Source: a virus (Duplodnaviria > Heunggongvirae > Uroviricota > Caudoviricetes). Taken from it: a stretch of 44,153 bases of DNA. Below are positions 7,506-23,062 of this stretch, in pieces; the first letter of the stretch is position 1; the number at the start of each line of letters is the position of its first letter. Location of the stretch: the IMG/VR virus record IMGVR_UViG_2541047916_000003; one strand, 5' to 3'. A model generated the notes under the pieces. It made no database searches. It was given only the letters and a program-made list of their open reading frames with translations, and was not told where the DNA came from. The translations under genes were made by a program, and so were the position numbers.

Positions 7506-7638
7506 TTTTTGGGACTCCTGGCTGATTAAGTATGTCGATAAGGCGTTTCCATCCGTCACGTAATTTACGGGTGATTCGTTCAAGTAAAGATTCGGAAGGG
7601 CAGCCAGCAACAGGCCACCCTGCAATGGCATATTGCAT
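7474..7638 (-). CDS. cIII: CIII (FtsH inhibitor, stabilises CII)
   Basis: Hand translation [54 protein letters not shown] matches lambda CIII; 54 aa, below the track threshold. Confidence 0.85.
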   Translation of the reverse strand: MQYAIAGWPVAGCPSESLLERITRKLRDGWKRLIDILNQPGVPKNGSNNYGYPD

Positions 7639-7710
7639 GGTGTGCTCCTTATTTATACATAACGAAAAACGCCTCGAGTGAAGCGTAATTGGTATGCGGT
7701 AACGCCGCGC

Positions 7711-19259: not shown

Positions 19260-19475
19260 ATGAAATCCATGGATAAGTTAACAACGGGTGTCGCCTATGG
19301 TACCTCAGCAGGTAGTGCCGGGTACTGGTTTTTACAGTTGCTCGATAAAGTCACGCCCTCACAGTGGGCGGCAATAGGTGTGCTGGGTAGCCTGGTATTT
19401 GGCCTGCTGACGTACCTGACAAACCTTTATTTCAAGATTAAAGAAGATAAGCGCAAGGCTGCGAGAGGTGAATAA
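19260..19475 (+). CDS. S: holin with dual-start motif (phage 21 S-like pinholin)
   Basis: 71-aa product with two TM segments; N-terminus MKSMDK provides Met1-Lys-Ser-Met4 dual start; resembles phage 21 S as recalled. Confidence 0.85.
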
Positions 19476-19972
19476 TGCCTCCATCATTACGAAAAGCCGT
19501 TGCTGCTGCTATTGGTGGCGGAGCAATTGCTATAGCATCAGTGTTAATCACTGGCCCAAGTGGTAACGATGGTCTGGAAGGTGTCAGCTACATACCATAC
19601 AAAGATATTGTTGGTGTATGGACTGTATGTCACGGGCATACAGGAAAAGACATCATGCTCGGTAAAACGTATACCAAAGCAGAATGCAAAGCCCTCCTGA
19701 ATAAAGACCTTGCCACGGTCGCCAGACAAATTAACCCGTACATCAAAGTCGATATACCGGAAACAATGCGCGGCGCTCTTTACTCATTCGTTTACAACGT
19801 GGGTGCTGGCAATTTCAGAACATCGACGCTTCTTCGCAAAATAAACCAGGGCGATATCAAAGGCGCATGTGATCAGCTACGTCGCTGGACATATGCTGGC
19901 GGTAAGCAATGGAAAGGTCTCATGACTCGTCGTGAGATTGAGCGTGAAATCTGTTTGTGGGGTCAGCAATGA
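19475..19972 (+). CDS. R: SAR endolysin (lysozyme with N-terminal signal-anchor-release domain)
   Basis: 165-aa product; Gly/Ala-rich hydrophobic N-terminus [18 protein letters not shown] then a T4-lysozyme-like domain; start overlaps holin stop. Confidence 0.85.
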
Positions 19973-20430
19973 ACAGAGTAACCGCGATTATCTCCGCTCT
20001 GGTTATCTGCATCATCGTCTGCCTGTCATGGGCTGTTAATCATTACCGTGATAACGCCATTACCTACAAAGCCCAGCGCGACAAAAATGCCAGAGAACTG
20101 ACGCTGGCGAACGCGGCAATTACTGACATACAGATGCGTCAGCGTGATGTTGCTGCGCTCGATGCAAAATACACGAAGGAGTTAGCTGATGCGAAAGCTG
20201 AAAATGATGCTCTGCGTGATGATGTTGCCGCTGGTCGTCGTCGGTTGCACATCAAAGCAGTCTGTCAGTCAGTGCGTGAAGCCACCACCGCCTCCGGCGT
20301 GGATAATGCAGCCTCCCCCCGACTGGCAGACACCGCTGAACGGGATTATTTCACCCTCAGAGAGAGGCTGATCACTATGCAAAAACAACTGGAAGGAACC
20401 CAGAAGTATATTAATGAGCAGTGCAGATAG
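19969..20430 (+). CDS. Rz: Rz i-spanin
   Basis: ATG at 19969 overlaps endolysin stop; N-terminal TM segment then coiled-coil periplasmic domain. Confidence 0.8.
20189..20371 (+). CDS. Rz1: Rz1 o-spanin lipoprotein (embedded in Rz, +1 frame)
   Basis: 60-aa ORF inside Rz; lipobox LVVVGC; proline-rich; AAGGAG ribosome-binding site upstream. Confidence 0.75.
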
Positions 20431-20461
20431 AGCTGCCCATATCGATGGGCAACTCATGCAA

Positions 20462-20755
20462 TTATTGTGAGCAATACACACGCGCTTCCAGCGGAGTATA
20501 AATGCCTAAAGTAATAAAACCGAGCAATCCATTTACGAATGTTTGCTGGGTTTCTGTTTTAACAACATTTTCTGCACCACCACAAATTTTTGCTGCATCG
20601 ACAGTTTTCTTCTGCCCAATTCCCGAAACGAAGAAATGATGGGTGATGGTTTCCTTTGGTGTTACTGCTGTAGGTTTGTTTCCAACAGTAAACGTCTGTT
20701 GAGCACATCCTGTAATAAGCATTGCCAGAGCGGCAGAAAACAACATTTTTTTCAT
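20462..20755 (-). CDS. bor: Bor serum-resistance lipoprotein
   Basis: 97-aa product from ATG at 20755 (MKKMLFSAALAMLITGCAQQTF...) matches lambda Bor as recalled; lipobox ITGC. Confidence 0.9.
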   Translation of the reverse strand: MKKMLFSAALAMLITGCAQQTFTVGNKPTAVTPKETITHHFFVSGIGQKKTVDAAKICGGAENVVKTETQQTFVNGLLGFITLGIYTPLEARVYCSQ

Positions 20756-21235
20756 CTTATTATCCTGCATTGTTAAAAACGGCAGAATCCTATGTGACAA
20801 CAATTAAACGATAGTTAAATGGATTGATGAAAATTAAAACTACACAGGTGGGCTCAGACTATTGGAGGAAGTTGGGGACACTCAGAATCCTGTGGAATGA
20901 AATAAACCGGTCTATCCGTCCATTACCCTTTTAGCTGCGCTGTATCGTCGCCGTATTCCCGCATTAACCATGACCGTAGCCCGACGGGGAATTCCTTCTG
21001 CGTGAGTGTGCGGGAATAATTAAAAACGATGCACACCGGGTTTTTACCGCGTTAATGATTCGCGGGTTTATCCCGGTGCGATGGTGGAAGAAACAGGAAG
21101 CTGTATTACAGAAAGTGCTACTACTGTATCCCGATGCGATGTATGTAATGTGAGTCAGATAATGGCACAGGATGTGGTGATGTGGCAGTCTGGAACACAG
21201 GATATATTGTCAGAATAAGACCCGTAGGAATAAAA

Positions 21236-21562
21236 ATGAAAAGACGCCTTTTACTACTTTTTCTGTTATCTGTCCTGGCAGTGGGATGCTCGCAGCAAAA
21301 AGCTGATGAGCCCCGGCAATTAGTGACGGTGTATCCACGATATCCGGAATATGCTGCAGCAAATTATATCAAGGGGCTGGTTGAGGTTAAGTTCGATATT
21401 GGTGCTGATGGGACTGTGACACGGATCGTTTTTCTCCGCTCAGAGCCTCATAATTTGTTTCGTGATGAAGTGGTGAAGGCCATGGCGAAATGGCGATTTG
21501 AAAAGAATCGCCCCTGTCAGGGAGTGAAGAGACAATTTATCTTTACGCCGTCACGTCCTTGA
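21236..21562 (+). CDS. lipoprotein with TonB-C-like domain
   Basis: Signal peptide plus lipobox (LAVGCSQ); YPRYPEYAAANYIKGLVEVKFDIGADGTV fits the TonB C-terminal pattern. Confidence 0.65.
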   Translation: MKRRLLLLFLLSVLAVGCSQQKADEPRQLVTVYPRYPEYAAANYIKGLVEVKFDIGADGTVTRIVFLRSEPHNLFRDEVVKAMAKWRFEKNRPCQGVKRQFIFTPSRP

Positions 21563-21925
21563 TGCTTCCAGGTAGAGAGGGGCTGGAAGCAGGAGAAAAA
21601 TGAAAGAGCCAGCGGTTATATTTTTGTCATGGCTGACGAGGAATGATGGAAGAAGGCGTTGTATGCCACACAACGCCTCACTGTTCATTTCTTCTTTTTC
21701 TCTGGTGGAACCCGATGAATAAGAGTTGCACTGGTTTCCGATGAGATGGCGATATACTCGGGCAAAGTATGCTGGCAGTTTTCCAACTGGTCAAAAATAC
21801 CTGCTCTCGTCTGTTGCAATGCCTGCAGCATGCGGCGGCAATGCGCCTTGCTTTTACTAACCATCTTTCCTTCCTCTATCAGTCGCTGCGTGAACTCATC
21901 ATGGAATACCAGGTAAATGCGGATG

Positions 21926-22177
21926 TTATCGGTTTTGGCTACGCAGCATAGTACAAAACGGACAGGTGCATCCCGGGACGGGGGAGGCGTCACATGTCCC
22001 TGTGATGGTTGTTCCGGGTAATGTACTGTGTGGGGCATAAAAATGTCCGATAATTTTACTTTCTACCGCAGTTAGTTGATTCGTTGGTCCTGGTAGCACA
22101 TTGGGCGAGGATTTAAATGCCAGGCAACTGAAGGATGATGTCGCAAGGGAGATAGCGAGAATATTTCTGATTTTCAT
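21926..22177 (-). CDS. small putative secreted protein
   Basis: ATG at 22177 gives MKIRNILAISLATSSFSCLA signal-peptide-like N-terminus; overlaps a second ORF (21685-22038) in another frame. Confidence 0.3.
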   Translation of the reverse strand: MKIRNILAISLATSSFSCLAFKSSPNVLPGPTNQLTAVESKIIGHFYAPHSTLPGTTITGTCDASPVPGCTCPFCTMLRSQNR

Positions 22178-22325
22178 TTGATGATGCCTCTGTGTGAAAT
22201 GACGGTAAACGACGCACTTGTGCCGGCACATAATAGCAAGCACCATAATAGATCAGATTCGATTCTTGCTGTAAGTGATAATTATTCTCGTTTTCGGGTC
22301 CTTTCCGTCGATCCAACAGGTTACG

Positions 22326-22337
22326 GGGCGGCGACCT
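22326..22337 (+). other. cos: cosN cohesive-end sequence
   Basis: GGGCGGCGACCT followed by CGCGGTTTTTCACTATTTATGAAAATTTT, matching the lambda left end as recalled; lies 188 nt upstream of the Nu1 start, as in lambda. Confidence 0.85.
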
Positions 22338-22513
22338 CGCGGTTTTTCACTATTTATGAAAATTTTTCAGGGAAAATCGTGTCGGTACTTCTCGAATATA
22401 ACTTTTTGTTTTTTTTAATATTGCATCCGTAAAGGTCCGACATGAAAGTGTCCGAAAATGCCTTTTTCTGGCGTTTTCATGTCGGGCCTTGTATTTGATA
22501 ATGGGTTGTTTTC

Positions 22514-23062
22514 ATGAAGGTTAATAAAAAGAGGCTTGCCGAAATTTTCAACGTGGACCCGCGGACGATTGAACGCTGGCAGTCTCAGGGACTCCCTTGC
22601 GCCTCCAAAGGTAGTAAGGGCATTGAATCTGTATTTGATACTGCCATGGCAATTCAGTGGTATGCGCAGAGGGAAACTGATATCGAAAACGAAAAGCTCC
22701 GCAAAGAACTGGACGATTTGCGTGCGGCAGCGGAGTCAGATTTACAACCCGGCACCATTGACTATGAACGCTACCGGCTCACAAAAGCGCAGGCAGATGC
22801 GCAGGAACTGAAAAATGCCCGTGAAGACGGAGTAGTGCTGGAAACTGAACTGTTTACCTTCATTCTGCAACGTGTGGCACAGGAGATTTCGGGGATACTT
22901 GTGCGTGTGCCGTTGACATTACAGCGTAAATATCCGGACATTTCACCATCACACCTTGATGTGGTGAAAACTGAAATCGCGAAAGCCTCCAATGTTGCAG
23001 CTAAGGCCGGTGAAAACGTGGGCGGGTGGATCGATGATTTCAGACGCGCAGAAGGCAGCTAA
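22514..23062 (+). CDS. nu1: terminase small subunit
   Basis: 182-aa ORF; N-terminal winged-HTH region and central ..IENEKLR..DLQPGTI.. resemble lambda Nu1. Confidence 0.9.

What the first reader, a model, noticed from the sequence alone, without database searches (positions are those of the whole stretch)
20950..21080. Structured non-coding segment between bor and the TonB-C-like lipoprotein gene
About 430 bp of non-coding DNA (20756-21235) contains nested inverted repeats. TATTCCCGCA (20954-20963) pairs with TGCGGGAATA (21009-21018), and CACCGGG (21034-21040) pairs with CCCGGTG (21072-21078) enclosing an imperfect ACCGCG/CGCGGG inner stem. This extent of complementarity in an intergenic region suggests a structured RNA (sRNA or 5'-leader control element) or a protein-binding site rather than a spacer.
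Basis: seen in the sequence. Interest (0 to 1): 0.4.

Follow-up and report, generated by a model that had tools for sequence, protein, structure and literature searches.

The report
Conserved structured RNA in lambdoid late operons
The inverted repeats belong to a roughly 165-185-base RNA fold, absent from Rfam 15, that sits between the lysis and DNA-packaging genes of many lambda-like phages (lambda, 434, 21, Shiga-toxin phages, the K-12 DLP12 prophage); comparison across phages supports the fold, but its function is unknown.

Summary
Both inverted repeats are at the stated coordinates. Taken alone they are weak: a 10-bp perfect repeat arises in 2% of shuffles and a 7-bp one in 70%.

Comparison rescues the finding. 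Window 20936-~21102 is a sharply bounded mosaic unit. In about 135 phage and prophage loci it always lies between R/Rz and the small terminase gene, always in late-transcript sense, with variable accessory genes (morons) on either side.

Across 49-72 distinct variants the helices co-vary:
- 96-98% of cells are paired, against 30-57% when partners are slid.
- G-U cells outnumber A-C cells 156 to 18, so the fold belongs to the + strand, most likely as RNA.

Elsewhere that segment forms an H-type pseudoknot (P5/P4) with an invariant GGAAGAA loop. In this phage-21-type copy a 17-nt deletion removed one pseudoknot arm.

It matches no Rfam family. It has no conserved promoter, terminator or ORF, and its downstream gene varies, so it is neither a classical sRNA gene nor a leader of the TonB-like gene. 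My best guess, which is inferred, is a cis-acting processing or stability element of the Q-antiterminated late mRNA.

The parts
20936..21102 (+). Whole conserved unit ('module B'), phage-21-type variant of the structured RNA motif
   Evidence: The covariance model built from 49 variants matches 20936-21102 on the + strand at 189 bits, E=1.6e-50, and it is the only copy in the window. Sharp mosaic boundaries appear in the alignments.
20942..20948 (+). P1 5' arm (GUAUCGU); pairs with 21026-21032
   Evidence: Alignment A3 columns 7-13 with 92-98: 98.3% of cells paired. Pair 8-97 is UG 33, UA 10, CG 3.
20954..20964 (+).
   Evidence: repeat I4. A3 columns 19-29 with 74-84: 98.1% paired and 5 of 11 pairs changed on both sides, for example lambda GCA/UGC to GGA/UCC, and ES18, SPN3UB and Raoultella UA to CG and CG to AU/UA.
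20975..21002 (+). Upper part of the 5' hairpin: P2b CGUAG 20975-20979 / CUGCG 20998-21002, tip CCC 20980-20982 / GGG 20987-20989, plus conserved unpaired runs
   Evidence: Predicted in the MFE fold. The tip is 100% paired but invariant. U42/C42 opposite G66 is the only variation in P2b. The tip is deleted in L172.
21008..21018 (+). P2 3' arm (GUGCGGGAAUA)
21019..21032 (+). Conserved A-rich joiner AUUAAAA plus P1 3' arm ACGAUGC (21026-21032)
   Evidence: ATAAT..A.AACGAT are invariant columns.
21047..21065 (+).
   Evidence: 88.8% paired in the MAFFT alignment and 97.3% in the structure-aware alignment, with 4 of 5 pairs changed on both sides.
21034..21078 (+).
   Evidence: Perfect here, and the 3' domain folds with z = -3.0. 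Across the family, pair 103-158 fails in 19 of 49 variants. The stem is created by a 17-nt deletion between 21071 and 21072 relative to full-length relatives with the same flanks (L083, L032).
21072..21099 (+). Remnant of the 3' pseudoknot: P4 5' arm 21072-21076, orphan P5 3' arm GCGAU 21078-21082, loop GGUGGAAGAAA 21083-21093, P4 3' arm 21094-21099
   Evidence: In the family, P4 is 92.8-96.1% paired with 5-6 of 6 pairs changed on both sides. P5 pairs are 147-167 CG 25/GU 16, 148-166 UA 18/UG 16/CG 11 and 149-165 CG 36/AU 6. In the window P5a is deleted and P4 keeps 3 of 5 pairs.
20462..20755 (-). bor (context: an antisense accessory gene inserted between Rz and the motif)
21236..21562 (+). 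TonB C-terminal-domain lipoprotein gene (context: accessory gene downstream of the motif)

Best explanation
Window 20936-~21102 encodes, on the strand of the Q-antiterminated late transcript, one copy of a conserved structured RNA domain of about 165-185 nt found in lambdoid phages. The fold has three parts. First, a long irregular hairpin: P1 of 7 bp, an internal loop, P2 of 11 bp, then P2b and a tip, with highly conserved unpaired runs (AUUAAC, UCUGCGNGAGUGUG, AUAAUCAAAAACGAU). Second, a variable hairpin, P3a. Third, in most relatives, an H-type pseudoknot (P5 of 5 bp crossing P4 of 5-6 bp) whose long loop is the near-invariant GGUGGAAGAAA. What is shown: the structure, the strand, the fixed position between the lysis cassette and the terminase genes, and independence from any particular neighbouring gene. 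What is inferred: it has no promoter or terminator of its own, so it is made as part of the late polycistronic mRNA. It most likely acts in cis as an intercistronic 'punctuation' element. That would be a nuclease entry or processing site (the coaxial P1+P2 duplex of about 18 bp with an internal loop resembles RNase III sites) and/or a compact barrier that stabilises the flanking lysis and morphogenesis mRNA segments, uncoupling their decay. The phage-21-type copy in this window keeps the 5' hairpin intact.
For: Structure: 96.0% of 1532 cells are paired, 14 pairs changed on both sides, 0 of 500 shuffles reach this, and slid controls give 33-55% paired. In the structure-aware alignment of 72 distinct sequences, 97.7% are paired and 16 pairs are double-changed. 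The pseudoknot helix P5 co-varies. In a background that preserves relatedness, 11 of 21 structure pairs meet a covariation criterion against 124 of 5855 (2.1%) of other variable column pairs. Strand: 156 G-U cells against 18 A-C cells, and RNAalifold gives -36.2 kcal/mol on the + strand against -9.3 on the - strand. Not coding: the window copy has stops in all six frames and lambda, ES18 and SPN3UB in every sense-strand frame, no frame is open across the family, and indels shift the frame. Context: in about 135 loci the unit always lies downstream of R/Rz and upstream of a small terminase gene, on the same strand. Four terminase types are involved (Nu1-like, 12E129-like, HK97-like with HNH, 933W-like). 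It starts 10 nt after the Rz stop in several Stx phages, and elsewhere follows bor, rha or KilA-N accessory genes. No sigma-70-like promoter or intrinsic terminator is found in or next to it on the + strand, and upstream flanks are unrelated between contexts. The family is common: some part of the 481-bp bor-to-TonB-like intergenic query matches in 3579 of 5426 complete E. coli genomes, a count that also includes matches to the bor-upstream segment alone. The phage-21-type form is present in 821 of them. K-12 DLP12 carries a copy at L173 3010-3179.
Against: No expression, end-mapping or nuclease data could be consulted, so the processing/stability mechanism is inference from anatomy and position alone. 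Simple stabilisers and RNase III sites do not normally need a pseudoknot or such conserved unpaired nucleotides, which points to a more specific partner. Single-sequence folding energies are unremarkable for the full-length forms (z from +0.5 to -1.0 for the 3' domains). The 3' domain is dispensable or degenerate in laboratory phages: deleted in 21 and mismatched in lambda, whose model score is 140 bits against about 220. P22, HK97 and HK022 have no clear copy, so the element is not essential. The variants are closely related and recombining, so cell counts overstate the number of independent events.
Confidence: 0.45

Rival explanations
1. A functional RNA in its own right: excised from the late transcript and acting in trans (for example as a host-factor decoy or binder), or a self-cleaving ribozyme or ligand-sensing domain. 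In this reading the conserved loops and pseudoknot form a specific tertiary fold.
For: Near-invariant unpaired nucleotides sit next to co-varying helices, and the H-type pseudoknot has an 11-nt purine-rich loop. The unit is independent of neighbouring genes and of phage protein types, which suggests a host partner or autonomous activity. It is retained in the cryptic prophage DLP12.
Against: No similarity to any ribozyme, riboswitch or sRNA family in Rfam 15. There is no expression platform and no constant downstream gene. Viable phages 21 and lambda have damaged pseudoknots. It is not among the Hfq-bound orphan RNAs in Sakai prophages.
Confidence: 0.2
2. A single-stranded DNA structure of the + strand, such as a lagging-strand priming or primosome-assembly signal used during rightward or rolling-circle replication.
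For: G-T is also the best-tolerated mismatch in DNA hairpins, so the strand asymmetry does not exclude ssDNA. Orientation relative to the origin is as constant as orientation relative to late transcription, because these genomes are collinear.
Against: Pseudoknots and long conserved loops are not typical of the known single-strand initiation signals (my own knowledge, not tested here). The unit sits in a heavily transcribed operon in sense orientation. No replication function has been mapped there in lambda (my own knowledge).
Confidence: 0.07
3. A DNA-level role only: the promoter or regulatory region of bor, or a conserved 'linker' that merely promotes homologous recombination between phage modules.
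For: The HK630 record annotates a minus-strand promoter (TGGACA-15 nt-TACAAT) inside the P2 5' arm of the lambda-type variant. The unit has sharp mosaic boundaries, and two loci carry tandem copies flanking an inserted gene.
Against: The unit occurs without bor in Stx phages, ES18, SPN3UB and others. The lambda -10 is not conserved here (TACGGC) and no minus-strand promoter is detected in the unit. A better-conserved bor promoter lies closer to bor. Neither role predicts compensatory changes or G-U bias.
Confidence: 0.08
4. One reading: a stand-alone sRNA gene, a 5' leader controlling the TonB-C-like lipoprotein gene, or a duplex-DNA protein-binding site.
For: Nested complementarity lies upstream of that gene in this window.
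Against: There is no promoter or terminator. The TonB-like gene follows the unit in only a minority of contexts. The arms co-vary rather than conserve sequence.
Confidence: 0.05

Closest known systems
Intercistronic RNase III processing hairpins of phage T7 (e.g. R1.1) and the lambda sib site
   Same: Phage-encoded hairpins with internal loops, placed inside or at the ends of polycistronic transcripts. They act in cis on mRNA processing and stability, in sense orientation only. The P1+P2 stack of about 18 bp with an asymmetric internal loop has a similar outline.
   Different: Those sites are simple hairpins of about 50-60 nt. This unit is three times larger, with a pseudoknot and long conserved unpaired runs. 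RNase III cleavage has not been tested here. No sequence or model similarity was found.
Operon-internal antitermination RNAs (HK022 put; Bacillus EAR element)
   Same: Structured RNA elements in the nascent transcript of long operons. They act in cis and are independent of the neighbouring gene's identity. EAR also lies between genes inside an operon.
   Different: Late transcription in these phages already relies on Q. put lies just downstream of the early promoters. There is no similarity to the Rfam models, and no terminator-readthrough data exist for this site.
Prophage-encoded Hfq-dependent sRNAs of EHEC/EPEC (AgvB, AsxR, HnrS, Pas sRNAs)
   Same: Non-coding RNAs carried in the late regions of lambdoid prophages of E. 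coli.
   Different: Those are 50-250-nt transcripts with their own start sites and intrinsic terminators. Most lie at the PR' accessory-gene site upstream of the lysis genes (PMC4104026, PMC13502914, bioRxiv 10.64898/2026.05.13.724894). This unit has neither promoter nor terminator, lies downstream of the lysis genes, and is absent from the Sakai Hfq-site list.
Classical H-type pseudoknots (T4 gene 32 operator, frameshift stimulators, preQ1/SAM-II aptamers)
   Same: The 3' domain has the canonical topology: stem 1 of 5 bp, loop 1 of about 3 nt, stem 2 of 5-6 bp, a 1-nt junction and a purine/A-rich loop 3 of 10-11 nt.
   Different: There is no overlapping ORF or conserved slippery site, no adjacent regulated start codon, and no Rfam aptamer match.

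Membership tests
Any Rfam 15 family | Covariance-model match, at the gathering score or at least a suggestive E-value | tested here: not met
   No hit overlaps the unit at E up to 10 in the window or at E up to 5 in four divergent variants: ES18, Raoultella, an Stx1 phage and lambda. The gathering scan of the window finds only Lambda_thermo at 7593-7651.
Stand-alone prophage sRNA (AgvB/AsxR/HnrS/Pas type) | Own promoter or primary 5' end | tested here: not met
   There is no sigma-70-like site on the + strand in 20300-22600 apart from one at 22474. Upstream flanks are unrelated between contexts, and in Stx phages the unit starts 10 nt after the Rz stop codon. Primary 5' ends were not measured.
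Stand-alone prophage sRNA (AgvB/AsxR/HnrS/Pas type) | Rho-independent terminator with a U-tail at the 3' end | tested here: not met
   No terminator-like site lies at or after 21100 on the + strand, and the sequences after P4 carry no U run in any class.
Stand-alone prophage sRNA (AgvB/AsxR/HnrS/Pas type) | Recovered as an Hfq-bound orphan peak in O157 Sakai | tested here: not met
   No text match to ECs1217-1219 or to coordinates 12754xx-12756xx in the supplementary files, and none of the listed Sp5 peaks in Table S2 of PMC4104026 lies near the copy at 1275441-1275624. That search assumed the paper's coordinates match NC_002695.2; an offset was suspected and nearby prefixes were not searched. 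The 177-222-nt candidates that were checked lie at the PR' accessory-gene site.
H-type pseudoknot | Two helices with crossing topology, each supported by covariation | tested here: met
   This holds for the family: P5 (columns 147-151 with 161-167) crosses P4 (154-159 with 179-184), and both show changes on both sides. It does not hold for the window copy, where P5a is deleted.
RNase III processing site | About two turns of (coaxial) duplex, with internal loops tolerated | tested here: inconclusive
   P1 (7 bp) plus P2 (11 bp) gives 18 bp separated by a 5/7-nt internal loop. That is compatible but not diagnostic.
RNase III processing site | rnc-dependent cleavage in vivo or in vitro | not testable with these tools
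   No transcript-end data were available.
Riboswitch / cis-regulatory leader | Constant position immediately upstream of a functionally coherent gene, with an expression platform (terminator or SD sequestration) | tested here: not met
   The first downstream gene varies: TonB-like, p78(-), DUF3950(-), HNH and several TerS types, at +174 to +1800 nt. There is no terminator.
-1 frameshift-stimulating pseudoknot | Overlapping ORFs and a conserved slippery heptamer 5-9 nt upstream | tested here: not met
   No frame is open across the family. GGGUUUG is present only in some variants.
lambda bor promoter (as annotated in HK630) | -35/-10 hexamers on the minus strand | tested here: not met
   The lambda type has TGGACA-15-TACAAT. 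The window has GGTCAT ... TACGGC at the aligned positions, and the scan finds no minus-strand promoter there.
Single-strand DNA initiation / primosome assembly signal | Priming activity of the folded single strand | not testable with these tools
   Only the strand bias is known, and it is compatible with either RNA or ssDNA.

The most novel reading that the evidence does not exclude
A previously unrecognised class of complex-folded RNA, made of a long conserved hairpin plus an H-type pseudoknot with an invariant purine loop, is embedded in the late operon of lambda-like phages including lambda itself and the K-12 DLP12 prophage. It would have a specific biochemical activity: self-cleavage, ligand sensing, or capture of a host factor such as a nuclease, RNA polymerase or a ribosome component. 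That activity would set the balance between lysis and virion-assembly gene expression.
Probability: 0.13. Interest if true: 0.85.

Novelty: new variant of a known kind. Interest (0 to 1): 0.6.

Why it matters
Lambda and its relatives are among the best-mapped genomes in biology, and the late operon is usually treated as one Q-antiterminated mRNA with no internal RNA signals. A conserved, co-varying RNA fold of about 180 nt at the lysis/packaging boundary would be a new, directly testable handle on how lysis and morphogenesis genes get different outputs from one transcript. This applies to lambda, 434, 21, Shiga-toxin phages and Salmonella phages, and some part of the bor-to-TonB-like intergenic region that contains the unit matches in about two-thirds of complete E. 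coli genomes (3579 of 5426). It also supplies a new candidate RNA family for Rfam-type annotation, and a marker of a recombination hot spot where accessory genes such as bor, rha, KilA-N and TonB-like lipoprotein genes are inserted.

Tried and rejected
1. Rfam: no family matches the unit.
2. Protein-coding: ORF B85/ECs_1218 in 933W-type phages and the 45-aa ORF 21081-21218 in phage 21 overlap the unit. The window copy has stops in all six frames, other variants have stops in every sense-strand frame, no frame is open across the family, and indels shift the frame.
3. Known EHEC/EPEC prophage sRNAs (AgvB, AsxR, HnrS, Pas, the EcOnc list): different positions and anatomy.
4. Literature searches by sequence string, borD/ybcV, lambda late-transcript processing, and lambdoid plus pseudoknot found no description. 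A 2023 catalogue of about 10,000 phage RNA candidates (PMC10690425) may contain the unit, but this could not be checked.
5. tRNA or tmRNA: none.
6. Resemblance of P2b (ACCGUAG...GGGGAA...CUGCG) to 16S rRNA helix 45, recalled from memory: local alignment to 16S and 23S scores no better than shuffles.
7. Complement of the GGUGGAAGAAAC loop elsewhere in the window: nothing beyond chance.
8. -1 frameshift signal: no ORF and no conserved slippery site.
9. Wider hosts: the genome-contig scan gave only Escherichia and Raoultella plus lambda control-DNA contamination. A BLAST search from the ES18 variant added no new genera.
10. Distant copies in HK97, HK022 and P22: only a weak hit (E=0.25) after Rz in HK97 and HK022, with no sequence variation available to test it.

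Full report
SETTING. Over 20756-21236 the window is identical to phage 21 and to several PhiR/ev phages. The local order is:
- R, 19475-19972
- Rz and Rz1, 19957-20430
- bor on the minus strand, 20462-20755
- a 480-bp gap
- a 45-aa annotated ORF, 21081-21218
- a TonB-C-domain lipoprotein gene, 21236-21562
- further on, Nu1 at 22514

OBSERVATION.
- In this one sequence the evidence is thin. A perfect inverted repeat of 10 bp or more with a loop of 60 nt or less occurs in 2.1% of dinucleotide shuffles of the region, and one of 7 bp or more in 70%.
- Folding z-scores are about -2 on the + strand and -1.5 on the - strand.
- No Rfam family matches, even at E up to 10.

A MOSAIC UNIT. BLAST shows that the gap is built from separate pieces.
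- Window 20756-20935 travels with bor.
- Window 20936-~21102 ('module B') also occurs without bor. In Stx phages it starts 10 nt after the Rz stop codon. In phage 1717 it follows KilA-N accessory genes. In the Salmonella phages ES18 and SPN3UB it follows rha or KilA-N genes at the right genome end. Lambda, HK630, 933W-type phages and the K-12 DLP12 prophage also carry it.
- A neighbour survey covered about 135 loci. The unit always lies downstream of R/Rz and upstream of a small-terminase gene, on their strand.
- That survey found four unrelated terminase types and a changing set of accessory genes (morons) on either side: bor, rha, KilA-N, p78/ybcV, DUF3950/ylcI, HNH and the TonB-like gene.
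- The unit is therefore not tied to bor or to the TonB-like gene.

STRUCTURE. I aligned 49 distinct variants (A3), then 72 with a covariance model (A4). RNAalifold on the + strand gives -36.2 kcal/mol against -9.3 on the - strand. The helices in window coordinates are:
- P1: 20942-48 with 21026-32
- P2b and tip: 20975-21002
- P4: A3 columns 154-159 with 179-184

Support for these helices:
- On A3, 96.0% of cells are paired and 14 pairs are changed on both sides. No shuffle out of 500 reaches this, and sliding the 3' partners by 1-3 columns gives only 33-55% paired.
- On A4, 97.7% are paired and 16 pairs are double-changed.
- Examples in P2: lambda GCA/UGC becomes GGA/UCC. ES18, SPN3UB and Raoultella replace U-A with C-G and C-G with A-U or U-A. 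One pair runs C-G, U-G, U-A through a wobble intermediate.
- A control that keeps relatedness: 11 of 21 structure pairs with two variable columns meet a covariation criterion, against 2.1% (124 of 5855) of all other variable column pairs.

STRAND. G-U cells number 156 and A-C cells 18. The fold therefore belongs to the + strand, the sense of the late transcript. It is either RNA or, less probably, single-stranded DNA. A duplex-DNA palindrome would show no such bias and would conserve sequence rather than co-vary.

THE SECOND STEM REASSIGNED.
- It is 90.7% paired overall, but pair 103-158 fails in 19 of 49 variants.
- Column 158 co-varies with column 180 instead: GC 25, UA 16, GU 4.
- The segment just upstream of P4 pairs with the 5' part of the P4 loop. 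This is helix P5: CUCGC/GCGGG, GUCGC/GCGAU, GCCGC/GCGGU, GCCAG/CUGGC, and in Raoultella GCGGC/GCCGU.
- P5 and P4 cross, which gives a canonical H-type pseudoknot: 5 bp, loop 1 of about 3 nt, 5-6 bp, a 1-nt junction, and an 11-nt loop GGUGGAAGAAA that is almost invariant.

The window's copy differs from full-length relatives with the same flanks (L083, L032). It lacks 17 nt between 21071 and 21072. That deletion removes P5a and joins CCC to GGUG, which creates the perfect CACCGGG/CCCGGUG stem. P4 keeps only 3 of 5 pairs. Lambda and DLP12 also have weaker 3' domains, at about 140 bits against about 220. The phage-21-type form is nevertheless common, in 821 of 5426 complete E. coli genomes.

WHAT IT IS NOT.
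- Not coding. The window copy has stops in all six frames; lambda, ES18 and SPN3UB have stops in every sense-strand frame; no frame is open across the family, and indels shift the frame.
- Not a promoter- and terminator-bounded sRNA. No + strand promoter or terminator is found, and the flanks are variable.
- Not one of the Hfq-bound prophage sRNAs of O157 Sakai, or of the Pas or HnrS sRNAs, which lie elsewhere and have terminators.
- Not a tRNA or tmRNA.
- Not a frameshift signal.
- Not a mimic of 16S helix 45, an idea I checked and rejected.
- Not the bor promoter. The lambda-type variant carries an annotated minus-strand promoter inside the P2 5' arm, but those hexamers are not conserved here, and a better-conserved promoter lies next to bor.
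- Not universal. P22, HK97 and HK022 lack a clear copy.

MECHANISM (INFERRED). The unit has no transcription signals of its own. It is always in sense orientation inside the Q-dependent late operon, and it ignores the identity of its neighbours and of phage proteins such as Q, holin or endolysin, and terminase type. It most probably works as part of the late mRNA, with host machinery as partner.

My preferred reading (about 0.45) is an intercistronic processing or stability element at the boundary between the lysis and morphogenesis segments. P1+P2 would be a nuclease-recognised duplex, and the compact folds would act as barriers to exonucleases.

The conserved loops and the pseudoknot are more elaborate than such a role requires. 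That keeps open a dedicated activity, such as a trans-acting RNA, a ribozyme or a sensor (about 0.2). A single-stranded-DNA signal (0.07) and purely DNA-level roles (0.08) are less likely.

NOVELTY. I found no description in Rfam 15 or in the searchable literature. I cannot exclude that large automated catalogues list it.

Noticed in passing
window 20787-20821 (minus strand): Upstream of bor: CATTTA-N5-CGTTTA followed by ATAGGAT. This is homologous to TGTTTA-N5-TGTTTA followed by ATACGAT upstream of lambda bor and K-12 borD. It looks like a PhoP box plus a -10 element. The consensus, and PhoP control of borD, are recalled from memory and were not tested here. This is probably the real bor promoter.
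   Followed up: partly
window 21071/21072: A 17-nt deletion relative to full-length relatives with identical flanks (L083, L032). It lies between short TCC repeats and defines the phage-21-type variant, which is found in 821 of 5426 complete E. coli genomes.
   Followed up: yes
window 21069-21083 and 21127-21141; ORF 21081-21218: A direct repeat, TATCCCGGTGCGATG / TATCCCGATGCGATG. A related ATCCCGATGC motif follows the unit in another downstream class. The 45-aa ORF annotated in phage 21 starts inside the pseudoknot loop, and its coding status is untested.
   Followed up: no
L007 5057-5238 and 6007-6188; L018 12458-12639 and 10748-10854: Two copies of the unit in tandem, flanking a single + strand gene of about 200 aa. 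This suggests accessory-gene insertion by recombination between copies.
   Followed up: partly
L107 4158-4336 and 5609-5652: An IS629 copy has inserted inside the unit, splitting it in the P3 region.
   Followed up: partly
L177 (HK97) 1068-1164; L178 (HK022) 1087-1183: Just after Rz and its terminator, and directly upstream of a KilA-N gene, there is a hairpin with a different 9-bp stem. It carries the same flanking motifs (ACAGAGAC, UCUGCGAGA, CAAAAA). The model hit is weak (E=0.25) and the fold z-score is -2.4. It may be a distant relative of the 5' domain. The available copies are nearly identical, so covariation could not be tested.
   Followed up: partly
L127-L163 (genome-contig hits): Matches in Pseudomonas, Cohnella, Flavobacterium, Kitasatospora and others, many on contigs of about 3.5 kb. 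These are identical to lambda and look like lambda control-DNA contamination of those assemblies.
   Followed up: no
window 7593-7651 (minus strand): The only Rfam gathering-level hit in the window is the lambda cIII thermoregulator (RF01804, 88.5 bits). Unlike the phage 21 reference record, the window has no tRNA genes.
   Followed up: no
loci with p78 or DUF3950 genes (e.g. L002, L164, L170): The minus-strand accessory genes p78/ybcV or DUF3950/ylcI end 174-188 nt after the unit's start. That is exactly at its 3' edge, so they converge on it.
   Followed up: no
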